DNA of 64,000 nt, from assembly GCA_002503055.1 (NCBI GenBank), contig DAQX01000008.1, forward strand, positions 459-64,458, in the 5' to 3' direction. Positions 51,945-61,661 of this stretch are shown piece by piece. Below the pieces are notes generated by a model that made no database searches, had not been told where the DNA came from, and worked only from the letters and a program-made list of their open reading frames with translations. This DNA is from Euryarchaeota archaeon UBA86. Lineage in GTDB: Archaea > Thermoplasmatota > Poseidoniia > Poseidoniales > Thalassarchaeaceae. A program made the translations under genes and the position numbers. How positions within the stretch are numbered: the first letter of the stretch is position 1; each line of letters begins with the position of its first letter.

Positions 51945-52223
51945 TTGGCAAGGATTGATTGCCTCTTTACAATCTCAGGAGTTGAGCAAATGGCGTTTGA
52001 GGACCTCACCGAGTTCGAATTACGACTGCTGAAGTGGATTTCAGCATCCGACTTTGTCGGGGTTGCTTGGTCCACAAAGCGTGCAGCTGATGCGTTCAAG
52101 GTTGATGAAAAGGAGGTCTACGAGGCACTAGCATCCTTGACTGCCAAAGTTCGAGATAACATTCACATCTACTATGACGAAGGTGCAATCAGGATTGTCG
52201 CTGACGACTCACTGCCATCTTAG
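51945..52223 (+). CDS. Small hypothetical protein
   Basis: 92-aa ORF immediately after gpsA with no motif. The internal ATG (MAFEDLTEFEL...) may be the true start. It overlaps the convergent phnE-like gene end by 15 nt. Confidence 0.3.
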   Translation: MARIDCLFTISGVEQMAFEDLTEFELRLLKWISASDFVGVAWSTKRAADAFKVDEKEVYEALASLTAKVRDNIHIYYDEGAIRIVADDSLPS

Positions 52224-53090
52224 TATATCGGGAAGAATTACTCCCCACCAAGAAGGTCTATTCACATTGTCTTCTTCATTGAAGAATGATCGTGCATATA
52301 TTGAGAGGAAATCAATCAGTAGAACGGTGATGAAGATAATTATCAAGTAAGCCATGACTTTGTCATATTGCAGGAACTTGAGATATAGATTGATGTAATA
52401 TCCAATTCCACCGGCCCCTACTATTCCGATTACTGTACCGTGCCTTACATTGTACTCAAACATGAAAATAGCCTGTGAAATCAAATGATTTGCAGACTCC
52501 GGTATCACCACTCCAAGAGATTTCTCAAATTTCGATAACCCCATTGAATTCGCCGCATCTAGAGGGGCTTTGTCCATACCCTCGATAGCCTCGTACTGCA
52601 GTTTTCCTAAGTAACCGACCGTGTAAATTGTCATGGCAAAAATTCCCGATAGAGGTCCGAGTCCAATCAGAATTACGAAGAAAATTGCCCAGATTAGGCT
52701 TGGTAGACTTCTGCCAGCGGCTAAGATGAATCTGGCCAGGTATGAGATTCTTGGAGAGTTCAGATTTCTAGCCGCTAGAAGTGCTATTGGTAGAGATATA
52801 ATCATTCCAAGAATTGTTGAGACAAATGCTATCTTTATTGTCTCAATCATTCCAATCCAAGCAGTAGAGCAAGTAAAACTGAATGGTTCTGGAGTTGTAC
52901 ACACCGGATATGCCTGTGCCTCCAGAACCGTCCAATCTGGTGGCCACAAAGATTGATGGAAGAAGTCTATGAGGTTTTGAAAACTACCTGATAATCGGCC
53001 CCAATCGTCAATCATCCCGTTTAGAACAACAAAACCCGAAATGAATAGTGCGAGTAGGGCGAAAGAGTTCTTTCCGAAACCTGTAATCAT
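52209..53090 (-). CDS. phnE: ABC transporter permease, PhnE-like (phosphonate-type importer family)
   Basis: EAIEGMDKAPLDAANSMG, FEYNVRHGTVIGIVGAGGIGYYI and a terminal D..S...R pattern typical of PhnE. ATGA overlap with the ATPase gene. Confidence 0.8.
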   Translation of the reverse strand: MITGFGKNSFALLALFISGFVVLNGMIDDWGRLSGSFQNLIDFFHQSLWPPDWTVLEAQAYPVCTTPEPFSFTCSTAWIGMIETIKIAFVSTILGMIISLPIALLAARNLNSPRISYLARFILAAGRSLPSLIWAIFFVILIGLGPLSGIFAMTIYTVGYLGKLQYEAIEGMDKAPLDAANSMGLSKFEKSLGVVIPESANHLISQAIFMFEYNVRHGTVIGIVGAGGIGYYINLYLKFLQYDKVMAYLIIIFITVLLIDFLSIYARSFFNEEDNVNRPSWWGVILPDILRWQ

Positions 53091-53815
53091 AGGTTAACCT
53101 CCAGTGCTGTAGTTTCGGAAAGGAATGGATTTACCCTTCCGTCATCAATGACTAGCATCCTATCTGCCATCGATTTAGCACGAGATACATCATGCTCCAC
53201 TACGATTAGAGCTGCTTGAGTTGAACGAACATATTCAGTAACCTCGAATAATACACTATTCAATGTCTCTTCATCTAACTCACTGAGGAATTCATCTGCC
53301 ATAATCAGCCTAGGTGATTGTGCCAGAGAACGTGCAGTTGCAACTCTTCTCTGTTGCCCACCCGAGAGTCTGCGAATTGGTTCGTCAATCTTGTCTGTAA
53401 GGCCCATTCTTTCAATCGCATCTTCGGTCCTGGACAGTGACTCTGCCGACGGAGTAATTGTATGAGGATTGGTGTGGCCGGCTCTAGCCCCCATCATCAC
53501 ATTGTGCTTCACACTAGCATGACGAACCAGTCCCAATCTCTGAGGGATGTATCCTACGGATCCACGAGGCGGAAGTTTCGGAAGTATTGAATTGCAAACT
53601 TCCAATGTTCCTGTAATTGGACTTACTAATCCGGCAATTGTACGGAGAAGTGTTGTCTTGCCGACCCCTGAAGCTCCGGTGATAGCAACGATTTCTCCAG
53701 GGTATATTTTCAAATCTGGAACCTGTACTAGAGGATTTTTTGAATCAAATCCGATGGTCAAACCGCTCAATGAGACGATTGGTTTCGAATTCTGATTTTC
53801 ATTATTTCCTGTCAT
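53087..53815 (-). CDS. phnC: ABC transporter ATP-binding protein, PhnC-like
   Basis: Walker A GASGVGKTT, Q-loop GYIPQRLGL, signature LSGGQQRRVATARSL, Walker B LIMADEF. The PhnC assignment comes from translational coupling to the PhnE-like permease. ATG 53815 is preferred over TTG 53818. Confidence 0.8.
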   Translation of the reverse strand: MTGNNENQNSKPIVSLSGLTIGFDSKNPLVQVPDLKIYPGEIVAITGASGVGKTTLLRTIAGLVSPITGTLEVCNSILPKLPPRGSVGYIPQRLGLVRHASVKHNVMMGARAGHTNPHTITPSAESLSRTEDAIERMGLTDKIDEPIRRLSGGQQRRVATARSLAQSPRLIMADEFLSELDEETLNSVLFEVTEYVRSTQAALIVVEHDVSRAKSMADRMLVIDDGRVNPFLSETTALEVNL

Positions 53816-53966
53816 CAAATCGCCTTCCTTTATTCGTTGGATGCTTGATAATGTTAGACATAAATGAAATTCTGCTCATCTGCGATGCAAGATGGAATGG
53901 GTTTGCCCTTGCCGCGGATTGCACAGCAATCCGTGGACGACCAACATTTGAATGATTGTGTTAGAG

Positions 53967-54074: not shown

Positions 54075-55334
54075 TTATTGGAGTGTGCCAATGTCATCAG
54101 CAGTGATGCCGAAAGCATCCCATGCAGGTTGTAAGTACATGCGAACATGTGCCTCGTAATCTGCTGTTGTGTCGCCATCATTGCTTAGATCGAATATGTC
54201 CACAATCTGAGCTGCTCCGTAGTCTGCGTAGTAGCCTGGCATTCCGCTTCCGGGGAACACAGAGGCGAATCCATTGCAGATTTCCTCGGTTGTTGCTGCT
54301 GCATATACGATGTGTCCTGCTCCCATGTTATAGCAGACCATCTCACCAGAACTTGGAGATTCGACCCAAGAGAATCCATCACAGTGTGCTGCTTCGCCTG
54401 CACCAATGTATGCCATTCCGTGAGTCTGGTTGTTGTAGCATGCATCTGTGTAGTCGGCCACATAAGCCTCGATTACTCTGAAGAATGCATGACCCTCGGC
54501 TTGGTGCTTATCGTAGTCGCCGTTTGCCTCGTCGAGATCAACAGTCATCTTTGATGCATACCTTACGGAAGCCTGTGAATAGACGATGACAATTTGCTTG
54601 AGAACCGCATCTCGAGCGTCAATCACGCCCTGCATGTCTTCATTCTCTAGTGCGGTTAGTCCGGCGTTCATTGCCGCGAGTGTGGCTACATTGGTTGCGT
54701 CGCCTGTTCCGAAGTTACCTCCTCTCTTAGCTGCAGTTGCGAAAGGTCCGCATCCGTCGTAGTCGTGGTCAGAATCATCAGGACCGTGATAGAATGCCCA
54801 TCCTTCGTCCCAAGCGTGCTGTGCATCGTCAGGGCCCCAGTTTCCTGCCTCGGCCTTGATTATGGCAGCATTGAGCTCGTGGATTGCATATGCGGTCATT
54901 ACACCGTTCTGAATTCCCTTCTCAACAGCTTGGTCTCTTACTGTGTCAGACTCGCCTGCGAATGCACCGGTGCCATCGATTGCCGCAGATACGAAGGAGT
55001 CCCATGATCCATCAACGCCATAATATGCGTCGTAGGCATGGTTCTTGCCAGAAGCGGATGCAAAGCCTTCCAAAGTCCTGAAGGATCCGTCGGACTTCTC
55101 AGCGTACTTTCCGTCCCCATAGATATCCGAAACTTCGTCCCAATCGTATGCTCCAGATAGATCCTTGATGTCACAAACATCACCCATCAGCATGCGATGG
55201 TTATCGACATTGGATGCGTACTCGTAGCCACCATCTTCGCCATCTAGTTCAATTTCATCATCACTTGTGCAACCTGCCAAAACAGATGCACAGAGAAGCA
55301 GTGTAATCAACATTGTAATTGTCTTTTTAGTCAT
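54075..55334 (-). CDS. Secreted acidic lipoprotein of unknown family, upstream of phnC/phnE-like genes; candidate metal-responsive binding protein
   Basis: Signal peptide MTKKTITMLITLLLCASVLAGC (lipobox). Conserved-looking segments FRTLEGFASASGKNHAYDAYYG, AWDEGWAFYHG and AEGHAFFRVIEAY. Two copies of the TTTAGG-N4-CCTAAA palindrome lie upstream. Confidence 0.6.
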   Translation of the reverse strand: MTKKTITMLITLLLCASVLAGCTSDDEIELDGEDGGYEYASNVDNHRMLMGDVCDIKDLSGAYDWDEVSDIYGDGKYAEKSDGSFRTLEGFASASGKNHAYDAYYGVDGSWDSFVSAAIDGTGAFAGESDTVRDQAVEKGIQNGVMTAYAIHELNAAIIKAEAGNWGPDDAQHAWDEGWAFYHGPDDSDHDYDGCGPFATAAKRGGNFGTGDATNVATLAAMNAGLTALENEDMQGVIDARDAVLKQIVIVYSQASVRYASKMTVDLDEANGDYDKHQAEGHAFFRVIEAYVADYTDACYNNQTHGMAYIGAGEAAHCDGFSWVESPSSGEMVCYNMGAGHIVYAAATTEEICNGFASVFPGSGMPGYYADYGAAQIVDIFDLSNDGDTTADYEAHVRMYLQPAWDAFGITADDIGTLQ

Positions 55335-55335
55335 T

Positions 55336-55351
55336 TTTAGGTCTCCCTAAA
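55336..55351. promoter_or_regulatory. Palindromic operator-like site TTTAGGTCTCCCTAAA (copy 1 of 4)
   Basis: TTTAGG-N4-CCTAAA inverted repeat, 2 nt upstream of the ATG of the 54075..55334 lipoprotein gene. Confidence 0.45.
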
Positions 55352-55379
55352 CCTTCGGACAGATATTCTATTTATCAAG

Positions 55380-55395
55380 TTTAGGTGGCCCTAAA
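55380..55395. promoter_or_regulatory. Palindromic operator-like site TTTAGGTGGCCCTAAA (copy 2 of 4)
   Basis: Same inverted repeat in the divergent intergenic region, 46 nt from the lipoprotein ATG and 75 nt from the DUF454 ATG. It is followed by ACTGTAAAAAAAAA, similar to the flank of copy 4. Confidence 0.5.
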
Positions 55396-55469: not shown

Positions 55470-55877
55470 ATGAACGGTGTTCATGAAGCTAAACTCAGCG
55501 AGAATAAACTGAGTAGAGTATTTTGGTTTTCTTTAGGAGTAATATTCACGGGTATTGGACTGATAGGGATTGTAGTTCCGGGTTTACCAACGACTCCCTT
55601 GATGATTCTAGCTGCTGCGTGTTTTGCAAAGTCCAGTCAGAGATTCTATGATTGGATTATCAATAACAGAATGTTTGGAGAACATGTGAAGAATTACCGA
55701 GAAGGTAATGGAATTCCTAAGAGAAGTAAGCCGGTAATTTTGGGAACAATGTGGACATTTGTGTTGTTTGCTGTTTTCATTGCAATCCCAGACAGTGCTC
55801 CCGAAATTTCGCGAAACGCAACAGTGATTTTGGCCGTGATTGGGACCATTTTTATCCTTAGAATTCCTAATTTCTAG
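55470..55877 (+). CDS. DUF454 (YbaN-like) inner-membrane protein
   Basis: IGIVVPGLPTTPLMILAAACFAKSSQRFYDWIINNRMFGEHVKNYREG matches the YbaN/DUF454 N-terminal signature. 135 aa. Confidence 0.75.
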   Translation: MNGVHEAKLSENKLSRVFWFSLGVIFTGIGLIGIVVPGLPTTPLMILAAACFAKSSQRFYDWIINNRMFGEHVKNYREGNGIPKRSKPVILGTMWTFVLFAVFIAIPDSAPEISRNATVILAVIGTIFILRIPNF

Positions 55878-56901
55878 GTAAAGGATGCAAAAATGCATTC
55901 TTTACAAGTTGTCCCAATCCTTGAATCCAACTCGGATCATCATTCAGACAACTGACGACGGTCAATTCTTTTCCGCCATGTTCCAAGAAATGTTCGCGGA
56001 TTTCGATATCTAGCTCTTCCAATGTTTCCAGGCCATCGGCGAGAAATGCGGGGGAGACAATGACGATCTTAGATTTCCCATTTTTAGCCAAATGCTCAAC
56101 CATTTTTGTGGTTGATGGTTGTAGCCATTTTGCGGGACCAAGACGACTTTGGTAACTCATCGACCAGTCTGATTCAGCAATCCCCAGAGCTCCGACTACA
56201 GACAATGTTGTGAGCATGCAGTGGTGAGCATAGCACATGGAATTACCCTCTACTTTGAGTTCGCAGCAATGTTCAACCTTCTGGCAGTGTTTACCACTTG
56301 AGTCGGCGCGTTTCACATGAGAAACTGGGAGGCCGTGATAGGAGAACAATAAGTGCGCTCCATCCGTCAAATGTGGATGAATTGATTTTGCCAATGGATC
56401 GATGAATTCTGGGTTGGTTGGAAAATGTGGCAATTGAGTAATAGAAGGATTCCAATTCATCTCTTTGAGTTGAAAATATGCATGTTTCAGCGAAGATTCG
56501 GTTGTCGCCTGTGCATGATGAGGAAACATTGGAGCGAGTAATAGTTCGTCGATTCCTGATTGTTTCAATTTCTCTAATCCTGAACGAATACTAGGATTCC
56601 CATAGCGCATTCCGACTTCACAACGAATATCTCCCAAACTAGATTCTAATGCGTCAGTCATTCTTTGAGTGTAGACACGGAGAGGCGAACCTTCTTGCAT
56701 CCATATACTCTCATATCTAGGTGCAATTTTCTTTGGGCGTGTTCTGAGGATTATTCCATGTACCAAAAGGTGTCGAAGAGGAGTAGGGATATCGATAACA
56801 TCGGGGTCGAGTAGAAATTCTCGAAGATATGTGCGAACAGAGGGTACCGTAGGTTCATCGGGCGTACCGATGTTCATTATCAGAACGCCTCTCTTAACCA
56901 C
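55867..56901 (-). CDS. hemH: Ferrochelatase
   Basis: GVLIMNIGTPDEP, VRTYLREFLLDPDVIDIP, RPKKIAPRYESIW..GSPL, FSYHGLPV and YQSRLGP..WLQPST motifs. GTG start. Confidence 0.9.
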   Translation of the reverse strand: MVKRGVLIMNIGTPDEPTVPSVRTYLREFLLDPDVIDIPTPLRHLLVHGIILRTRPKKIAPRYESIWMQEGSPLRVYTQRMTDALESSLGDIRCEVGMRYGNPSIRSGLEKLKQSGIDELLLAPMFPHHAQATTESSLKHAYFQLKEMNWNPSITQLPHFPTNPEFIDPLAKSIHPHLTDGAHLLFSYHGLPVSHVKRADSSGKHCQKVEHCCELKVEGNSMCYAHHCMLTTLSVVGALGIAESDWSMSYQSRLGPAKWLQPSTTKMVEHLAKNGKSKIVIVSPAFLADGLETLEELDIEIREHFLEHGGKELTVVSCLNDDPSWIQGLGQLVKNAFLHPLPRN

Positions 56902-56946: not shown

Positions 56947-58158
56947 CTACAATTCTGAATTGACTTCAGCTAGTTGGATTATCGATCCATCCCATCCAAA
57001 AACAATCAATTGATTGGCATGACCCTTACCAAAACCAACTATCATTTTCCCTGCCGTACCTATGAGATTATTCTCCCAAGTTCCACTAGAATTACTAATT
57101 GCCCAAATCGATCCGGAGCAAAAGTCACCATAGATATACGAGTCTCGCAGAGAAGATGGCCCCCAGTCCATCCAGAAACCTCCTGTGATTGAGCAGTTTC
57201 CATTGGTGTGTGGATATGTATGAATTATCTCTGGAGTTGAAATTGAACTATTGAAATTACATTCCCCTCCAGCTACGAAATTTTGTGGACCTTCCATTTC
57301 AGACCAACCGAAGTTGGTTGATTGCAGCATAGGAACTAAATTCACTTCTTCCCAACAATTCTGACCTACATCTGAGATCCAGAGACGGTTATCGGTGTCC
57401 ATGTCGAATCTCCAAGGATTCCTCAATCCATAGTGTAGAATGTATGGATCTTCGCCTGGTGATGAGATTGATGTAGAAGGAGAAATTTGGTAACCATCAA
57501 AGGAAAAGAGCAGGATTGAACCTAGTTTTGTTGATTCGTTCTGGCCGTGCCCTTCCGGATCATTAGCACTTCCTCCGTCCCCTATACCCCAGAGAAATTC
57601 TCCATTTCCAATTGAAACTAGATGGCCTCCGTTGTGATTGCGGTAGGGTTGCTCGATTTCCATTAAAACGGTAATTGATTCTAAATTCAGATTGTTCTGA
57701 GCATCAATTTCAGCATATGCCAAAATTAGATTGGATTGGTTTGGGCCGTCACATGGCCCAGACTCTATGTATGAGAGAAGGACTTTGTTTGAGTTCTCAA
57801 AATCGTCATCGAAGGCAAATCCCAGCAGTCCTTGCTCCATGTGGCATCTTCCAATCAAGGAGCTCAAATCTGCTACATTTGTTCCTGGGTTATTTGCATC
57901 AAAATTGGATTCAGTTGGCCAAGAAATGATAAAACCGTTCAGATCAATAATCCATAACTCATCAGAATATGGATGTTCTAAAGATAGAATTGGATTCATT
58001 AGTCCGTTGAGATATTCTAAACATTCCAATTCATATTCTTCGACAATGTTGCAATCAGATGCAATGACATCTGGCCATTCGTATTCATCTGAATCATCAG
58101 AAAGGCATCCGCATAAGACGGGAACCACCAACAATAGGGAAATGGCCAGAACTCGCAT
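56947..58158 (-). CDS. Secreted lipoprotein, PQQ-dependent glucose/sorbosone dehydrogenase-like beta-propeller (GSDH/YliI family)
   Basis: Signal peptide MRVLAISLLLVVPVLCGC. NHNGGHL, GDGGSANDPEGHGQN, LGSILL, GLRNPWRF, DVGQNCWEEVN and NFGW motifs. ATG 58158 lies 2 nt after the stop of the upstream transferrin-like gene. Confidence 0.8.
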   Translation of the reverse strand: MRVLAISLLLVVPVLCGCLSDDSDEYEWPDVIASDCNIVEEYELECLEYLNGLMNPILSLEHPYSDELWIIDLNGFIISWPTESNFDANNPGTNVADLSSLIGRCHMEQGLLGFAFDDDFENSNKVLLSYIESGPCDGPNQSNLILAYAEIDAQNNLNLESITVLMEIEQPYRNHNGGHLVSIGNGEFLWGIGDGGSANDPEGHGQNESTKLGSILLFSFDGYQISPSTSISSPGEDPYILHYGLRNPWRFDMDTDNRLWISDVGQNCWEEVNLVPMLQSTNFGWSEMEGPQNFVAGGECNFNSSISTPEIIHTYPHTNGNCSITGGFWMDWGPSSLRDSYIYGDFCSGSIWAISNSSGTWENNLIGTAGKMIVGFGKGHANQLIVFGWDGSIIQLAEVNSEL

Positions 58159-58160
58159 AC

Positions 58161-59210
58161 TCAAGAGAAGTAAGCCTGTATTCCTGGTACATTGGACACC
58201 GCGGCTGCGTATGTCCCCAAGTGGTCTTCAGCGTTTGCAGGTGACATTCCTTCGGTGTTTAGCAAATCTTTCAGGATTTGTCTCCCCTCTTCATCATCAT
58301 CAAGTGCAATCACTGCATTTTGAACTGCTAGAACTGTATCTTCATCCATATATTCTGGATTGTAGAGAACTGGGTGACTTGGCGCTTGACCAAATGCAGG
58401 TAGCATCACCACATCGTCCCTATCCAAGCACCAATCATTAGCGTCTGAACCAGTACAATAGCTATCGTAAACAGTATCCTTGGCAAGGGTAATGTCTCCT
58501 GTTCCGTCCATCATGCACCTTAGGGCTCCCTTGTAGCCAGAGTAAGGTGTGCCGCCCTCAGGGATACTCGAGTCTTCTGAGAAGAAGTTGGTCACGGTGG
58601 CCCTGAGTGAATCAATATCATTGGGGTCTCCGATTACTTCCGCGTATTCATTACCGATTAGATAGCCCATTGGGATTAGCATACCAGCACTCTTGAGCCA
58701 ACCGGTGTGGCACGAAGTCTTGCCCTCCATAAGAGCAAAGGGGTCTGTTTCAGGATCATCATCGAGATAAGCTGCTGCCATGTCCGAATCTGCCCTTACC
58801 CAAGCTGCGGCATTGTAGTAAGTCCTCCCATCTGACTTATGCTCGGCTGCTAGCACATCTAGCCCATACACTTCCCAAGCTAACCAAGCTGCGGCTCCAT
58901 CCACGAACCCGATATCGGCGTTACCCTTGTCGATTGCCTCGATGGTTGCAGCCTCATCGGCTACTGCATAAATCTCCACATCCATGTCTAATAGTTCACT
59001 TAGTCTATCTGCAAGATGTTGTGGATTATTATCCCAGATGAGGTAAGTATCCTTAACCTCGTAAGCTACTACTAGGCAGTTTTCATCGTCATCACACTGA
59101 TCATAGTTCACATCAAAAATGAAGTACAGAGTAGATGCTATGATTACCATCCCTGCTGCAATATAAGTCCAATTTTCCTTTGCTGATAGGAACTCTCTTA
59201 CTCGGTTCAT
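58161..59210 (-). CDS. Membrane-anchored single-lobe transferrin-family / PhnD-fold iron-binding protein homologue
   Basis: N-terminal signal-anchor helix. Block-wise match by eye to the human serotransferrin N-lobe. NADIGFVDGAAAW matches EADAVTLDAGLVY. RTYYNAAAWVRADS matches TFYYAVAVVKKDS. GKTSCHTGWLKSAGMLIPMGYL matches [28 protein letters not shown] matches VANFFS. YSGYKGALRCMMDGTGDI matches YFGYSGAFKCLKDGAGDV. QAPSHPV matches QVPSHTV. ATG 59210 is preferred over ORF-track TTG 59222. Confidence 0.85.
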   Translation of the reverse strand: MNRVREFLSAKENWTYIAAGMVIIASTLYFIFDVNYDQCDDDENCLVVAYEVKDTYLIWDNNPQHLADRLSELLDMDVEIYAVADEAATIEAIDKGNADIGFVDGAAAWLAWEVYGLDVLAAEHKSDGRTYYNAAAWVRADSDMAAAYLDDDPETDPFALMEGKTSCHTGWLKSAGMLIPMGYLIGNEYAEVIGDPNDIDSLRATVTNFFSEDSSIPEGGTPYSGYKGALRCMMDGTGDITLAKDTVYDSYCTGSDANDWCLDRDDVVMLPAFGQAPSHPVLYNPEYMDEDTVLAVQNAVIALDDDEEGRQILKDLLNTEGMSPANAEDHLGTYAAAVSNVPGIQAYFS

Positions 59211-59240
59211 GGGGGTGCGCAAACGATATCAAATAAAATG

Positions 59241-59256
59241 TTTAGGGGGCCCTAAA
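59241..59256. promoter_or_regulatory. Palindromic operator-like site TTTAGGGGGCCCTAAA (copy 3 of 4)
   Basis: Same inverted repeat, 31 nt upstream of ATG 59210 of the transferrin-like gene. Confidence 0.5.
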
Positions 59257-59294: not shown

Positions 59295-61616
59295 CTAATC
59301 CAGTAATAGAAGACTTAGTTGCATTAGTGCAGCTCCGAAAGTCATTCCCACAATCATGAATCTGGGTCTTTCTTGGATCAACGCCTGGGGTATTAATTCC
59401 TTGAAACTGACTACTGCCATAATTCCTCCAACAAATGCCAATGACAACCCTACAATAAAGGGAGACAAAATTGATCCGAGAATAAGTAACGCGAACAATG
59501 CTCCAATTGGCTCGGTCAGGCCGGTTGCCAATGCAATCATTACAGCCTTAAATTTCCCTCCGCCACCGGCCTGAATGGGAGCTGCTACAGCTATTCCTTC
59601 TGGGATATTGTGCAGTCCGATAGCGACCATCAGAACGATCCCATATTGGGCTGATTCAAGTACGGCAACACCTATCGCAAGACCTTCGGGGAAGTTATGA
59701 ATTCCCAGAGCAATCGCCGTGAAAATTCCAGACATGTACATTTTCTTCTTCTCTGTCATTTCCTCGTCAATGTTGTTTTTTCTAAGTAGAATATTTGCTA
59801 GAAAAACTATAGATGCCCCGATTGCAAAAGAAATTGAAATCCCGATAAAGCCGAATTCCATTGCTTGCCCTAGCCATAAATCAAATATGGAAATGAGGAG
59901 CATTACGCCGGCAGCCATCCCAAGCATGAATGACATCATTTCTCTGCTTATTTCTTTAATTAAAATTACAATTAGGCCCCCTATGCCTGTCGCTAACCCA
60001 GCCATTAGAGCTATCATAAATGGGAAAACCCATGATTCGGAATTCCCTTCTAGACTTTTAATCTCAATTATTGGGCTATCTTCGGCTATTAGGTTCAAGG
60101 ATTGAACCATCTCAAGAACAAAATTAGTGACCAATTCAGCACCCTCTTTGTCGATTAATTCACCTTGTGAATCAATATCGAGATTATTGCTAAAGTCTGT
60201 ACAAAATGGCCAAATCTCTGAGGAGGTTGCATCCAATCTCTGGAAGCCTATGCCAACTGTGTCGATGCCTGCGTGATTGAAACTCCTATGGCTGCTACAG
60301 CCTTGAATAGAGTCAATGGAAGGATTGTTAGCGATAACATTAGCAGAATATTGACCGGCCCCTCCAAAAGTAGTCTTGGCAGAAGATTTGGCTTTAGAAA
60401 CAAGAACATTGTTGGATGCCTCTACTGTAATTGAGTCAATGCCCATGGCTTCATTGAGAATTGCTGAATCGATGTTGATGTATAACTCCGGCTTTTGACT
60501 TTCTTCGATCTGATCAAGGAAAGCTTGACTACTGAGCCATCCAAGTTCCTCACCGCCCCATGAAACAAATTTCACAGTTCTATCTAGTTCTCTACCATTC
60601 AATTGTCTAGCGATTTCGACAAGTTGTGCCACGCCTATCGAATTGTCTACTTGACCTTCGCTCAAGTAAGAAGTGTCGTGATTGGCGCCAATCATTACTG
60701 ATTTGGAGGATTTTCCGGGCAATTCTCCAGTTACAATCTGTACATTAGTGACGCCGGTCTGGGCCGCTTCCCAATTGCCGTCAAGAATCGCATACTTTGA
60801 TCCATCCGATTCTGCCTCATCGATGAACTCTATGAAAGTCTGAGCAGTTTCATGTGTGATGAATATGAATGGTATCAAATCGTAATCTGGGAAAGCTTCG
60901 GGGAATGAGATTAGCCTATCATCATCAGTCAGAACTACTATCGGTTCAAAGTATGTCGATTCCAGTTCCTCCTCGTAAATCATCAGAACTGATGCTCCCG
61001 CTTCTATTGCTTCTCTGTAATAATCAGAAAGGCTTCTGCCAGTATTCTCTATTTCATGGTGAATCAGAATTGCCTTATCCGTAAGATCTCCCGAGTTGGT
61101 AAAATCTTCCGAGGTCCCACTTCCTAGATTTACCATCTCGCTATCATGTTTGTGAGAACCTCCAGAATAACCAAGAAAAGTGAATGCATCCCTGTGCTCC
61201 AAGTCGCCTGTAGAAGAAATCTGAACTCTGCCTGTCCCTGCCGAACCATCTGGAAGTCCGGGGATATTGCCGATACCCTGCTCTATTTGCGCATGCATAT
61301 GGATTGGTTCATCACCTTCATCGGGCTCTACAAGCCATGAGCCCCAAATCTCAAATTCTGTAATTTGTACATCAGATAGTCCTGCATCTTCAAACATCTC
61401 TGAGATAATAATTGATGCTTCCATCTCCGAGTTAGAACCAGGAACTCTGGGCCCAAGGGAACTTAGATTACTTGACTCCTCTAGAATTTTATCTCCATCT
61501 GAATGAAACTCAATAGATGGCTCGTGAAGAATGAAACCAGCTGCAAATGAAGAAATGAGTACGACGGCGGAAATTATTCCAAGAGTGTTTATTCTCCTAT
61601 AGGGGTCGTATTCCAT
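59295..61616 (-). CDS. Fusion protein: N-terminal TM anchor + extracytoplasmic PA-domain-containing M28-family metallopeptidase-like domain + C-terminal ZIP (ZupT-like) metal transporter
   Basis: M28 features: LGPRVPGS, VTGELPGK..VMIGANHDT, GQVDNSIGVAQLVEIAR, FVSWGGEELGW, YINIDS, SSHRSF. A PA-like insert (GDLTDKAILIHH...AIEAGASVLMIY). The ZIP part (about the last 245 aa) has GIHNFPEGLAIGVA and GLHNIPEGIAVAAP. Confidence 0.85.
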   Translation of the reverse strand: MEYDPYRRINTLGIISAVVLISSFAAGFILHEPSIEFHSDGDKILEESSNLSSLGPRVPGSNSEMEASIIISEMFEDAGLSDVQITEFEIWGSWLVEPDEGDEPIHMHAQIEQGIGNIPGLPDGSAGTGRVQISSTGDLEHRDAFTFLGYSGGSHKHDSEMVNLGSGTSEDFTNSGDLTDKAILIHHEIENTGRSLSDYYREAIEAGASVLMIYEEELESTYFEPIVVLTDDDRLISFPEAFPDYDLIPFIFITHETAQTFIEFIDEAESDGSKYAILDGNWEAAQTGVTNVQIVTGELPGKSSKSVMIGANHDTSYLSEGQVDNSIGVAQLVEIARQLNGRELDRTVKFVSWGGEELGWLSSQAFLDQIEESQKPELYINIDSAILNEAMGIDSITVEASNNVLVSKAKSSAKTTFGGAGQYSANVIANNPSIDSIQGCSSHRSFNHAGIDTVGIGFQRLDATSSEIWPFCTDFSNNLDIDSQGELIDKEGAELVTNFVLEMVQSLNLIAEDSPIIEIKSLEGNSESWVFPFMIALMAGLATGIGGLIVILIKEISREMMSFMLGMAAGVMLLISIFDLWLGQAMEFGFIGISISFAIGASIVFLANILLRKNNIDEEMTEKKKMYMSGIFTAIALGIHNFPEGLAIGVAVLESAQYGIVLMVAIGLHNIPEGIAVAAPIQAGGGGKFKAVMIALATGLTEPIGALFALLILGSILSPFIVGLSLAFVGGIMAVVSFKELIPQALIQERPRFMIVGMTFGAALMQLSLLLLD

Positions 61617-61645: not shown

Positions 61646-61661
61646 TTTAGGTAGCCCTAAA
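61646..61661. promoter_or_regulatory. Palindromic operator-like site TTTAGGTAGCCCTAAA (copy 4 of 4)
   Basis: Same inverted repeat, 30 nt upstream of ATG 61616 of the M28-ZIP fusion gene, followed by ACTACAAAAAAAA. Confidence 0.5.

What the first reader, a model, noticed from the sequence alone, without database searches (positions are those of the whole stretch)
58161..59222. Single-lobe transferrin homologue retaining all four iron ligands and the carbonate-site Thr, in an archaeal-type genome
The 350-aa product is not merely PhnD-fold. It aligns block by block with the N-lobe of vertebrate serotransferrin. FVDGA supplies the Asp ligand (D108 in ORF-track numbering). RTYYNAAAWV supplies the first Tyr (Y135/136). 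KTSCHTGWLKSAGMLIP matches [16 protein letters not shown], giving the carbonate-anchoring Thr173, with Lys177 where transferrin has Arg124. VTNFFS matches VANFFS. YSGYKGALRCMMDGTGD supplies the second Tyr (Y230). APSHPV supplies the His ligand (H283). The protein has a single N-terminal signal-anchor helix, so it would be displayed on the outer face of the membrane. Transferrins are regarded as essentially eukaryotic. The so-called bacterial transferrins (FbpA/FutA) share the fold but not these sequence blocks. As I recall, work on diatom phytotransferrin proposed that transferrin descended from prokaryotic PhnD-type phosphonate-binding proteins. A prokaryotic protein with the transferrin ligand set near PhnC/PhnE-like genes would be a candidate intermediate, or else a eukaryote-to-archaeon transfer.
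Basis: partly seen in the sequence, partly recalled or inferred. Interest (0 to 1): 0.92.

Follow-up and report, generated by a model that had tools for sequence, protein, structure and literature searches.

The report
Archaeal transferrin-like iron uptake protein
A marine archaeon (Marine Group II) encodes a membrane-anchored, single-lobe true relative of blood transferrin with every iron- and carbonate-binding residue intact; it appears to be the iron-capturing part of an iron-regulated ABC importer that is currently annotated as a phosphonate transporter, and in sequence it lies between bacterial PhnD proteins and eukaryotic transferrins.

Summary
The ORF at 58161-59222(-) (353 aa from TTG; more likely 349 aa from the ATG at 59210) matches solved transferrins and lactoferrins at E=6e-22. 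It has no significant pairwise similarity to E. coli PhnD. Asp108, Tyr136, Tyr230, His283, Thr173 and Lys177 align with the human N-lobe ligands and are invariant or nearly invariant across homologues. The gene belongs to a family found throughout Poseidoniales (MGII archaea). It is syntenic with PhnC/PhnE-type ABC genes, a Fea1-related lipoprotein and a GSDH-like propeller. I found a 16-bp palindrome, TTTAGG-N4-CCTAAA, upstream of the Tf-like, Fea1 and M28-ZIP genes: 4 copies in the window against 0.07 expected. In 80 related loci, 127 of 130 copies lie upstream of Tf-like, Fea1, PhnC or ferrochelatase genes. Relatives encode DtxR-type iron repressors next door. Best reading: an iron-repressed, surface-anchored Fe(III)-carbonate binding protein that feeds an ABC importer. 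Pfam scores and an NJ tree place the family between PhnD and a monophyletic eukaryotic transferrin clade, not inside it. Iron binding is untested. I found no paper describing this family.

The parts
58161..59222 (-). Transferrin-like substrate-binding protein gene. It is 353 aa from the TTG at 59222; the probable true start is the ATG at 59208-59210, giving 349 aa.
   Evidence: ORF list. Pfam Transferrin 60.2 bits and Phosphonate-bd 82.7 bits. PDB transferrins at E=6e-22. P0001, 96% identical, starts at the ATG.
59115..59171 (-). N-terminal hydrophobic signal-anchor helix, residues W18-F36. Many homologues have a lipobox (LAGC) here instead.
   Evidence: The AF2 model shows a helix at residues 7-36. 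Alignment A1 shows either a TM anchor or a lipobox in homologues. Coordinates verified.
58899..58901 (-). Asp108 codon, equivalent to human Tf Asp63 (Fe ligand).
   Evidence: (invariant).
58815..58817 (-). Tyr136 codon, equivalent to human Tf Tyr95 (Fe ligand).
   Evidence: (nearly invariant).
58692..58712 (-). C171-H172-T173-G-W-L-K177 (SCHTGWLK). Thr173 and Lys177 correspond to the carbonate-anchoring Thr120 and Arg124. Cys171 corresponds to hTf Cys118.
   Evidence: (all invariant).
58533..58535 (-). Tyr230 codon, equivalent to human Tf Tyr188 (Fe ligand). Cys236 (58515-58517) corresponds to hTf Cys194.
58374..58376 (-). His283 codon, equivalent to human Tf His249 (Fe ligand).
   Evidence: (invariant).
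59241..59256 (.). Palindromic box TTTAGGGGGCCCTAAA, 31 nt upstream of the ATG. An A/T-rich TATA-like stretch lies between the box and the start. It is a candidate DtxR-type iron operator.
   Evidence: 4 copies in the window, 0.07 expected; 68 of 76 homologous genes carry it about 20 nt upstream.
56947..58164 (-). GSDH-like (PQQ-dehydrogenase/HHIP-type) beta-propeller lipoprotein gene. It abuts the Tf-like stop codon and is probably co-transcribed.
   Evidence: Pfam GSDH 73.8 bits. It lies downstream of the Tf-like gene in 59 of 80 loci. PDB matches to HHIP and sGDH at E about 1e-8.
54075..55334 (-). FEA1-related lipoprotein gene (the algal Fea1/ISIP2a phytotransferrin family).
   Evidence: NF038033 345.7 bits against a cut-off of 250; Pfam Fea1 69.2 bits.
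55336..55395 (.). Two copies of the same palindrome (55336-55351 and 55380-55395), immediately upstream of the Fea1-like gene.
   Evidence: 35 copies upstream of Fea1 genes in related loci.
53087..53818 (-). PhnC-type ABC ATPase gene.
   Evidence: Pfam ABC_tran; TIGR02315 128 bits, below its cut-off. Linked to Tf-like genes in 41 of 80 loci.
52209..53090 (-). PhnE-type ABC permease gene.
   Evidence: TIGR01097 227 bits against a cut-off of 216.7. Linked in 35 of 80 loci.
59295..61616 (-). Fusion gene for an M28 peptidase ectodomain and a ZIP metal transporter, immediately upstream. It shares the regulon in this genome but is lineage-specific.
   Evidence: Pfam Zip and Peptidase_M28. BbZIP at E=1.6e-15. 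Present next to the Tf-like gene in only 2 of 80 loci.
61646..61661 (.). Fourth copy of the palindrome, 30 nt upstream of the M28-ZIP start.
55867..56901 (-). Ferrochelatase gene embedded in the cluster.
   Evidence: Pfam Ferrochelatase 330.9 bits. The same neighbourhood occurs in L049, L050, L063 and L066.

Best explanation
The gene encodes a surface-displayed, membrane-anchored, single-lobe homologue of transferrin. I propose it binds Fe(III) together with a synergistic carbonate, using Asp108, Tyr136, Tyr230 and His283 for the metal and Thr173 and Lys177 for the anion. I propose it acts as the substrate-binding protein of a PhnC/PhnE-type ABC importer encoded in the same cluster. The cluster also includes a Fea1-like lipoprotein and, in this genome, an M28-ZIP fusion. 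It appears to be transcribed from promoters overlapped by a TTTAGG-N4-CCTAAA palindrome, which a DtxR-family iron-dependent repressor would occupy when iron is plentiful. What is shown: the homology, conservation of the ligand residues, the synteny, and the conservation and specificity of the operator. What is inferred: Fe(III)/carbonate binding, hand-over to the ABC permease, and the identity of the repressor. Evolutionarily, the family is a prokaryotic branch that lies between PhnD-type binding proteins and eukaryotic transferrins.
For: Homology to transferrin: PDB phmmer E=6e-22, with the 60 best matches shown all in the transferrin family. Pfam Transferrin scores above its gathering cut-off. 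BLASTP against the hTf N-lobe gives E=1e-17 with all six site residues and the C118-C194 cysteine pair in register. These residues are invariant or nearly invariant across 28 homologues. DYTKYH is the commonest pattern among 129 domains of the superfamily.

Not a PhnD: TIGR03431 scores 31 bits against a cut-off of 261. There is no BLASTP similarity to E. coli PhnD, E=1.3. The window has no C-P lyase genes.

Link to an ABC importer: PhnC-like and PhnE-like genes lie within 6 kb in 41 and 35 of 80 Poseidoniales loci. They are often directly adjacent or divergently transcribed. More distant relatives have contiguous Tf-like, ATPase and permease genes (L006, L008, L090).

Iron regulation: the window has 4 exact palindromes against 0.07 expected, all upstream of the Tf-like, Fea1 or M28-ZIP genes. 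In 813 kb of related loci, 127 of 130 copies lie within 260 nt upstream of Tf-like, Fea1, PhnC or ferrochelatase genes, and 68 of 76 testable Tf-like genes carry one. DtxR-type repressor genes sit next to the Tf-like gene in L006, L008, L090, L086 and L088. The shared intergenic regions hold 3-4 boxes. The half-sites match the published DtxR consensus TTAGGTTAGCCTAACCTAA (PMC7762939).

Iron-related neighbours: Fea1-like, ZIP and ferrochelatase genes.

Intermediate position: the Pfam score gradient and the NJ tree.
Against: There is no biochemical evidence that the protein binds iron or carbonate. Pfam Phosphonate-bd scores higher than Transferrin (82.7 against 60.2 bits). Foldseek ranks PtxB, AioX and ArrX level with transferrins at E about 1e-14, so fold alone does not favour transferrin. 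Lys replaces the Arg of vertebrate transferrins at the anion site. In the window the ABC genes are 4.3 kb away, separated by GSDH-like, ferrochelatase, DUF454 and Fea1-like genes. The Fea1-like protein, which lies directly upstream of PhnC, could therefore be the transporter's partner here. No DtxR gene lies in the window. The palindrome has a shorter spacer than the bacterial DtxR box, so the repressor's identity is inferred. The phylogeny is a distance-based NJ tree with only moderate support.
Confidence: 0.72

Rival explanations
1. It is an ordinary PhnD/PtxB-type phosphonate, phosphite or phosphate binding protein of a PhnCDE transporter. This is how JGI annotates some homologues and how MGII genome papers may have read these genes.
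For: Pfam Phosphonate-bd is the top Pfam hit and covers nearly the whole profile. The permease passes the PhnE equivalog cut-off. Foldseek top hits include PtxB. Tully 2019 lists phosphonate transport as a core MGII trait (PMC6336850).
Against: The PhnD-specific models fail: 31 bits against 261, and 42 against 112. There is no pairwise similarity to E. coli PhnD. All transferrin metal ligands are invariant. The window has no C-P lyase genes. The regulon box and the neighbouring regulators are iron-type, not Pho-type. The neighbours are Fea1-like, ZIP and ferrochelatase genes.
Confidence: 0.06
2. The protein has the transferrin site but binds something other than Fe(III)-carbonate. Candidates are another hard metal ion, an iron chelate, or Fe(III) with a different synergistic anion. 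[quoted passage not shown]
For: Lys replaces Arg at the anion site. The tightly coupled GSDH-like gene, present in 59 of 80 loci, has no role in a plain SBP model. In the window the M28-ZIP gene is adjacent and shares the operator. Some paralogous lobes have altered ligand sets, which shows the site can be retuned.
Against: The D/Y/Y/H plus Thr and basic-residue set is the specific Fe(III)-carbonate signature, and DYTKYH is the majority pattern across the family. Contiguous Tf-like, ATPase and permease operons occur in several lineages without ZIP or Fea1. M28-ZIP is adjacent in only 2 of 80 loci.
Confidence: 0.15
3. The archaeal gene is a eukaryotic transferrin lobe acquired by horizontal transfer and secondarily recruited to an ABC transporter. 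On this reading it is not a stem-group intermediate.
For: The closest named non-archaeal relatives are ichthyosporean transferrins, with 31-34% identity in the trimmed tree alignment. They share the same four-cysteine pattern. Prokaryote monophyly appears in 33% of bootstraps, which would allow a single ancient transfer in either direction.
Against: Eukaryotic lobes are monophyletic in 86% of bootstraps. Archaeal proteins group with the ichthyosporean lobes in only 2%. Prokaryotes are monophyletic with eukaryotes paraphyletic in 5%. A cysteine-free archaeal grade with the same D/Y/T/Y/H residues, also in ABC operons, branches closer to PhnD. The partner genes are PhnC/PhnE-type, the ancestral partners of PhnD. 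Pfam scores are graded rather than bimodal.
Confidence: 0.1

Closest known systems
Vertebrate transferrin lobes (human serotransferrin N-lobe, ovotransferrin, lactoferrin)
   Same: Homologous at sequence level, with E=6e-22 to PDB chains. It shares the periplasmic-binding-protein type II fold. Asp, Tyr, Tyr and His plus the Thr and basic anion-site residues are in register. One conserved cysteine pair is equivalent to hTf C118-C194.
   Different: It is a single lobe of about 300 residues without most transferrin disulfides or insertions. Lys replaces Arg124. It is anchored to the membrane by an N-terminal helix. It is linked to an ABC importer rather than to a receptor-endocytosis route. It is encoded by an archaeon.
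Ichthyosporean multi-lobed transferrins (Chromosphaera, Creolimax, Amoebidium, Ichthyophonus, Abeoforma)
   Same: They are the closest named eukaryotic relatives, at 31-34% identity in the tree alignment. They have the same DYTKYH signature and mostly the same four-cysteine pattern.
   Different: They are eukaryotic proteins with one to five lobes. They fall in the monophyletic eukaryotic clade. No ABC operon context is known for them.
PhnD / PtxB / AioX / ArrX oxyanion-binding proteins (Pfam PF12974)
   Same: They share the fold (Foldseek E about 1e-14). The protein matches the broad Pfam model and partners with PhnC/PhnE-type transporter genes.
   Different: It fails the PhnD and phosphonate-SBP NCBIfam cut-offs by a wide margin. 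It has no pairwise similarity to E. coli PhnD. It carries metal ligands that PhnD lacks. It sits in an iron-type regulon.
FbpA / FutA 'bacterial transferrins' (Fe(III) binding proteins of ABC importers)
   Same: The proposed job is the same: an extracytoplasmic protein that binds Fe(III) with an anion and feeds an ABC importer. This comparison rests on my own knowledge of those systems.
   Different: The protein gave no hit to the SBP_bac-type Pfam families that hold FbpA/FutA. From my own knowledge, FbpA uses a His/Glu/Tyr/Tyr set with phosphate and lacks the transferrin sequence blocks. I did not compare them directly here.
Phytotransferrin ISIP2a / Fea1
   Same: It is a carbonate-dependent Fe(III)-binding surface protein of marine algae, proposed to share a PhnD-type origin with transferrin (McQuaid 2018, as summarised in PMC7676907). 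A Fea1-related lipoprotein is encoded in the same cluster and the same regulon.
   Different: The Fea1-like protein is a different protein family from the one under study. It is a neighbour of the Tf-like gene and not an orthologue.

Membership tests
Transferrin family (Pfam PF00405) | Significant match to the Transferrin profile above the curated cut-off | tested here: met
   60.2 bits against a gathering score of 20.3, E=2.6e-16, in two stretches. All 120 best homologues carry PF00405.
Transferrin family (Pfam PF00405) | Four Fe(III) ligands, Asp, Tyr, Tyr and His, at the homologous positions | tested here: met
   D108/D63, Y136/Y95, Y230/Y188 and H283/H249 are in register. They are invariant or nearly invariant in 28 homologues.
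Transferrin family (Pfam PF00405) | Synergistic-anion site: a Thr and a basic residue at the helix N-terminus (hTf Thr120, Arg124) | tested here: met
   T173 and K177 lie in SCHTGWLKSAG, which aligns with [11 protein letters not shown]. Lys at this position is the majority state across 129 domains.
Transferrin family (Pfam PF00405) | The ligand residues converge on one inter-domain cleft in 3-D | not testable with these tools
   The AF2 model has mean pLDDT 82.4 and matches transferrin lobes, but coordinates are not returned, so distances could not be measured.
Transferrin family (Pfam PF00405) | Carbonate-dependent Fe(III) binding | not testable with these tools
   This needs recombinant protein and spectroscopy.
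Transferrin family (Pfam PF00405) | Bilobal architecture from a tandem duplication | tested here: not met
   This protein has a single lobe. Archaeal paralogues of about 700 aa are two-lobed through their own duplication. Bilobality is typical of the family rather than strictly defining.
PhnD phosphonate-binding protein (NCBIfam TIGR03431 / TIGR01098) | Score above the curated equivalog or subfamily cut-off | tested here: not met
   31.2 bits against 261.1, and 42.2 against 112.05. Only the N-terminal half matches.
PhnD phosphonate-binding protein (NCBIfam TIGR03431 / TIGR01098) | Detectable pairwise similarity to E. coli PhnD | tested here: not met
   BLASTP E=1.3.
PhnD phosphonate-binding protein (NCBIfam TIGR03431 / TIGR01098) | Linkage to PhnC and PhnE transporter genes | tested here: met
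   The PhnE equivalog scores 227 bits against 216.7. PhnC-like and PhnE-like genes are linked in 41 and 35 of 80 loci.
PhnD phosphonate-binding protein (NCBIfam TIGR03431 / TIGR01098) | Linkage to phosphonate catabolism genes (C-P lyase) | tested here: not met
   There are no PhnG, PhnH, PhnI or PhnJ homologues in the 64-kb window. The rest of the genome was not available.
Phosphonate-bd fold family (Pfam PF12974, broad) | Match above the gathering score over most of the profile | tested here: met
   82.7 bits, profile positions 17-241 of 242. Ichthyosporean transferrins also pass this model, so it does not exclude transferrin membership.
DtxR/IdeR-controlled iron regulon | Palindromic operator with TTAGG/CCTAA half-sites at the promoters of iron-uptake genes | tested here: met
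   4 copies in the window against 0.07 expected. 127 of 130 copies in related loci lie upstream of cluster genes. Consensus taken from PMC7762939. The spacer is shorter than in the bacterial box.
DtxR/IdeR-controlled iron regulon | A DtxR-family repressor encoded with the regulated genes and binding the box | tested here: inconclusive
   DtxR-type genes are adjacent in L006, L008, L090, L086 and L088. None is in the window. Binding was not tested.
FbpA/FutA Fe(III) binding proteins | Match to the SBP_bac-type Pfam families that hold FbpA/FutA | tested here: not met
   No such family appeared among the Pfam hits at E<=1.

The most novel reading that the evidence does not exclude
Eukaryotic transferrins descend from this kind of archaeal (Thermoplasmatota/MGII-type) iron-binding component of a PhnCDE-derived ABC importer. 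On this reading the family is the living link between PhnD and transferrin. The Fe(III)-carbonate site, the first transferrin disulfide and even lobe duplication were already present in prokaryotes before the gene reached an early eukaryote, possibly a marine holozoan.
Probability: 0.4. Interest if true: 0.9.

Novelty: new variant of a known kind. Interest (0 to 1): 0.8.

Why it matters
Transferrin is a textbook eukaryotic iron carrier, and its origin from bacterial binding proteins has been inferred mainly from fold. McQuaid 2018, as summarised in PMC7676907, proposed a PhnD-type ancestry. This finding supplies a prokaryotic family that has the transferrin site in sequence, still sits with PhnC/PhnE-type transporter genes, and lies between the two families in profile scores and in a tree. 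That makes the origin question testable with one recombinant protein and one proper phylogeny.

It also matters for ocean microbiology. MGII archaea are among the most abundant surface-ocean archaea. A transporter counted as 'phosphonate transport' in their core genome (PMC6336850) may in fact be a carbonate-dependent iron uptake system under iron control. If so, as in diatoms, their iron supply would be sensitive to seawater carbonate chemistry. The conserved palindrome gives a handle for defining the MGII iron regulon.

Tried and rejected
1. Fold search as a discriminator. Foldseek against the PDB gave PtxB, AioX and ArrX level with transferrins at E about 1e-14. It confirms the fold but cannot decide between the families.

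2. Measuring ligand distances in the AF2 model was not possible, because coordinates are not exposed to the script environment.

The narrower alignment A3 worked.

4. The full 130-domain NJ tree was poorly supported, because degenerate and partial lobes act as rogue taxa. I replaced it with a 48-domain set with intact ligands.

5. I considered whether the adjacent M28-ZIP protein is a proto-transferrin receptor, since the animal receptor ectodomain is M28-like. I rejected this as a general feature. The fusion is adjacent in only 2 of 80 loci. Its closest solved relatives are active aminopeptidases. It keeps His/Asp/Glu-Glu/Asp/His-type motifs.

6. I looked for a DtxR homologue in the window and found none.

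7. I looked for C-P lyase genes in the window and found none.

8. Ten literature searches found no description of archaeal or other prokaryotic transferrin homologues. Several apparent hits were the word 'transferring'. McQuaid 2018 itself could not be read, so I cannot rule out that its phylogeny already included such sequences.

9. I considered contamination or mis-assembly of a eukaryotic gene and rejected it. 444 stretches in reference genomes encode relatives. The best 80 loci show conserved archaeal synteny.
Full report
OBSERVATION. The ORF at 58161-59222 on the minus strand is real and is 353 aa from a TTG start. P0001, the 96%-identical homologue found on dozens of marine contigs, starts at the ATG that encodes residue 5. 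The likely product is therefore 349 aa, from 59210. Residues 18-36 form a hydrophobic helix (AF2 helix 7-36). Many homologues carry a lipobox at the same place. The domain should therefore be tethered on the outside of the membrane, as is usual for archaeal binding proteins.

IS IT A TRANSFERRIN HOMOLOGUE? Yes. A sequence search of all PDB chains returns 97 matches at E<=1. The 60 best shown are all lactoferrins, ovotransferrins, serotransferrins, melanotransferrin or the transferrin-like inhibitor of carbonic anhydrase. The best E-value is 6.1e-22, and both lobes of lactoferrin match. Pfam Transferrin scores 60.2 bits against a cut-off of 20.3. BLASTP against the human N-lobe gives 28% identity and E=1e-17. 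It aligns D108 with D63, Y136 with Y95, T173 with T120, K177 with R124, Y230 with Y188, H283 with H249, and C171/C236 with C118/C194. Authentic E. coli PhnD, fetched from the K-12 genome, shows no significant similarity (E=1.3). The PhnD-specific NCBIfam models score 31 and 42 bits against cut-offs of 261 and 112.

The broad Pfam Phosphonate-bd model does score higher than Transferrin (82.7 bits). The AF2 model (mean pLDDT 82.4, pTM 0.76) matches PtxB, AioX and ArrX and transferrin lobes equally well by Foldseek, at E about 1e-14. Sequence identity is 13-18% for the former and 20-22% for the latter. Fold alone therefore does not discriminate; sequence does. I could not measure ligand distances because the tools do not return coordinates.

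THE FAMILY. The protein has 615 relatives at E<=0.001 in the 5.8-billion-protein collection, and all 120 best carry both Pfam domains. Named members come from 'Euryarchaeota archaeon', Candidatus Thalassarchaeum, Thalassarchaeaceae and Thermoplasmatota MAGs. Sources label them 'hypothetical', 'PhnD/SsuA/transferrin family substrate-binding protein', 'ABC-type phosphate/phosphonate transport system substrate-binding protein' or even 'melanoma-associated antigen p97'. A scan of GTDB species-representative genomes found 444 stretches encoding relatives. Of the best 80 loci, 77 carry titles of Poseidoniales-type archaea (Poseidoniales, Poseidoniaceae, Thalassarchaeaceae, MGII, or generic Euryarchaeota/Methanobacteriota/Thermoplasmatota archaeon). 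The other three carry bacterial MAG labels and are probably mis-binned contigs. The best locus is 95% identical. Across 28 homologues, D108, T173, K177, Y230, H283 and four cysteines are invariant. Y136 is broken only in one frameshifted sequence.

An exhaustive HMMER pass over 1.84 billion cluster representatives found only 301 relatives at E<=0.001. This is a compact superfamily. It contains archaeal one- and two-lobed proteins and eukaryotic proteins with up to at least seven lobes. In 129 extracted domains the commonest site pattern is DYTKYH, identical to the window protein.

GENOMIC CONTEXT. On the minus strand the window reads as follows: GDPD; an M28-peptidase/ZIP fusion; the Tf-like gene; a GSDH-like propeller; ferrochelatase; DUF454 (on the plus strand); an FEA1-related lipoprotein; a PhnC-type ATPase; and a PhnE-type permease. 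The Tf-like gene is the only copy in the window. The closest relatives' contigs read GDPD, Tf-like, GSDH-like, Fea1-like, a 700-aa two-lobed Tf-like protein, ATPase and permease. Compared with them, the window genome lacks the two-lobed paralogue and has the M28-ZIP and ferrochelatase genes inserted.

Across 80 Poseidoniales loci with up to 6 kb of flank, the GSDH-like gene follows the Tf-like gene in 59. PhnC-like genes are present in 41, PhnE-like in 35, Fea1-like in 26 and M28-ZIP in only 2. The ABC genes are often directly downstream or divergently adjacent. In more distant one-lobed relatives the order is simply Tf-like, ATPase, permease. A DtxR-type iron-dependent repressor gene lies beside it in L006, L008 and L090, and L008 also has a ZIP gene. 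The window has no C-P lyase genes.

A CONSERVED OPERATOR. While reading the upstream regions I found the palindrome TTTAGG-N4-CCTAAA in four places. One copy is 31 nt upstream of the Tf-like ATG (59241-59256). One is 30 nt upstream of the M28-ZIP start (61646-61661). Two lie just upstream of the Fea1-like start (55336-55351 and 55380-55395). The window holds exactly these four copies against 0.07 expected, and no shuffle out of 100 reached four.

In 813 kb of Poseidoniales loci there are 130 exact copies. Of these, 127 lie within 260 nt upstream of Tf-like (70), Fea1-like (35), PhnC-like (20) or ferrochelatase (2) genes. Among the 76 Tf-like genes with enough upstream sequence, 68 carry one, most often about 20 nt from the estimated start. 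The intergenic regions shared by a DtxR-type gene and a Tf-like gene hold four boxes in L008 and three each in L086 and L088. L006 has a one-mismatch copy. The half-sites match the published DtxR consensus TTAGGTTAGCCTAACCTAA (PMC7762939), although the spacer is shorter.

An A/T-rich stretch lies between the box and the start codon. This fits an archaeal TATA element with a leaderless transcript, so a bound repressor would block promoter access. That last step is inference. Together these data define an iron-type regulon containing the Tf-like gene, the Fea1-like gene, the ABC transporter and, in this genome, the M28-ZIP gene.

MECHANISM. My best-supported reading is as follows. When iron is scarce the repressor leaves the boxes. 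The cell then displays the Tf-like protein, which binds Fe(III) with carbonate in its cleft. The protein docks on the PhnE-type permease, and the PhnC-type ATPase drives import. The homology, residue conservation, synteny and operator are shown. Metal and anion binding, docking and the repressor's identity are inferred. The roles of the tightly coupled GSDH-like propeller (best PDB matches HHIP and PQQ glucose dehydrogenase, E about 1e-8) and of the Fea1-like lipoprotein are open. In the window the Fea1-like gene, not the Tf-like gene, lies directly upstream of the ABC genes.

EVOLUTIONARY POSITION. Scores against the two Pfam models form a gradient:

Protein - Phosphonate-bd bits / Transferrin bits
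E. coli PhnD - 268 / none
Nitrosopumilus P0286 - 151 / none
P0264 - 95 / 36
P0197 - 112 / 55
P0177 - 110 / 91
Window protein - 83 / 60
P0187 - 75 / 76
Abeoforma P0212 - 47 / 113
Amoebidium P0190 (two lobes) - 92 / 216
Human N-lobe - 24 / 584

The closest named eukaryotic relatives are ichthyosporean proteins with one to five lobes. A cysteine-free archaeal group that includes a Nitrosopumilus protein keeps D, Y, T, Y and H. It has Gly at the basic position and lacks the C171/C236 pair. It too sits in an ABC operon, next to CbtA/CbtB genes.

I built a neighbour-joining tree of 48 full-length lobes with intact ligands (292 columns, Kimura distances, 500 bootstraps), rooted on E. coli PhnD. It gives a ladder: PhnD, then the cysteine-free archaeal grade, then Thermoplasmatota/MGII one-lobed proteins, then a eukaryotic clade. 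Eukaryotes are monophyletic in 86% of replicates. The split of PhnD plus the cysteine-free group from the rest appears in 89%. Archaeal proteins group with ichthyosporeans in 2%. Prokaryotes are monophyletic while eukaryotes are paraphyletic in 5%. The two lobes of the archaeal 700-aa protein P0169 pair with each other within the MGII branch, so that duplication looks independent of the eukaryotic ones. This is a distance method on divergent sequences, so I treat it as an indication and not as proof. It argues against a recent eukaryote-to-archaeon transfer. It fits a prokaryotic origin of the transferrin site, consistent with the PhnD-origin proposal of McQuaid 2018 as summarised in PMC7676907.

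WHAT IS KNOWN. Databases already tag these proteins with the Transferrin domain and a generic family name. Ten full-text searches found no paper that describes archaeal or other prokaryotic transferrin homologues or their link to iron. I could not read McQuaid 2018. Tully 2019 lists 'the transport of phosphonates' as part of the MGII core genome (PMC6336850). The data here suggest that at least this PhnC/PhnE-type system is an iron importer.

VERDICT. The protein is a member of the transferrin family by sequence and site. It is not a PhnD by the specific models. It works, I infer, like an Fe(III) binding protein of an ABC importer under DtxR-type control. I rate it a new variant of a known kind. 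My confidence is high that the homology and the regulon are real, and moderate (about 0.7) in the proposed mechanism.

Noticed in passing
window 59241-59256, 61646-61661, 55336-55351, 55380-55395; also L008:3291-3463, L088:5802-5866, L086:4161-4225: A 16-bp palindrome, TTTAGG-N4-CCTAAA, marks the promoters of the Tf-like, M28-ZIP and Fea1-like genes. In related loci it also marks PhnC-like and ferrochelatase genes. It is a candidate DtxR-type iron box for Marine Group II archaea.
   Followed up: yes
window 59295-61616 (-): A 773-aa fusion of an extracellular M28 peptidase domain with a ZIP metal transporter. It keeps His/Asp/Glu-Glu/Asp/His-type peptidase motifs and both HNxPEG ZIP motifs, and it shares the iron-box palindrome. 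It lies next to the Tf-like gene in only 2 of 80 related loci (L043, L048). The animal transferrin receptor ectodomain is also M28-like, but this looks like coincidence.
   Followed up: partly
window 56947-58164 (-): A GSDH-like beta-propeller lipoprotein gene abuts the Tf-like stop codon and follows the Tf-like gene in 59 of 80 loci. Its best solved relatives are Hedgehog-interacting protein and PQQ glucose dehydrogenase. Its role in an iron-uptake cluster is unexplained; an extracellular redox partner is one possibility.
   Followed up: partly
window 54075-55334 (-): An FEA1-related lipoprotein (NF038033, 346 bits), from the family of algal Fea1/ISIP2a phytotransferrins, is encoded in the same regulon, directly upstream of the ABC genes. 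An archaeon thus carries relatives of both eukaryotic 'transferrin' lineages in one cluster.
   Followed up: partly
L001:13768-15870 and equivalents in L002-L004; proteins P0169-P0171, P0175, P0176, P0182: MGII archaea also encode two-lobed Tf-like proteins of about 700 aa directly upstream of the ABC genes. The two lobes of P0169 pair with each other in the NJ tree. In several of these proteins the second lobe has lost the iron ligands (for example AHTDPE or AIPDDK). The window genome lacks this paralogue.
   Followed up: partly
L089:7001-8089 (Nitrosopumilus; P0286) and P0252, P0264, P0308, P0303: A cysteine-free archaeal branch annotated as phosphate/phosphonate binding proteins keeps Asp, Tyr, Thr, Tyr and His at the transferrin positions, with Gly at the basic position. 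In Nitrosopumilus it sits in an ABC operon next to CbtA/CbtB cobalt-transporter genes. These proteins may be metal binders rather than phosphonate binders.
   Followed up: partly
proteins P0172 (1894 aa), P0183, P0185, P0199 (2619 aa), P0201 (2661 aa): Some protists and algae encode very large multi-lobed transferrins: five lobes in Chromosphaera perkinsii, and 14 matched stretches (about seven lobes) in a Bryopsis protein.
   Followed up: no
L012, L045, L075: Three MAGs labelled Rhodobacteraceae, Pedosphaera and Salinimicrobium carry this locus at 58-75% identity with typical MGII synteny. These contigs are probably mis-binned archaeal DNA.
   Followed up: no
window 55867-56901 (-) and 55470-55877 (+): Ferrochelatase and a DUF454 membrane protein are inserted between the GSDH-like and Fea1-like genes. 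The same pair lies near the cluster in L049, L050, L063 and L066, and two palindrome copies in related loci sit upstream of ferrochelatase.
   Followed up: partly
window 52209-53818 (-): The permease passes NCBI's PhnE equivalog cut-off, so annotation pipelines will call this a phosphonate transporter. Tully 2019 (PMC6336850) lists phosphonate transport as a core MGII trait, and that inference may need revisiting.
   Followed up: partly
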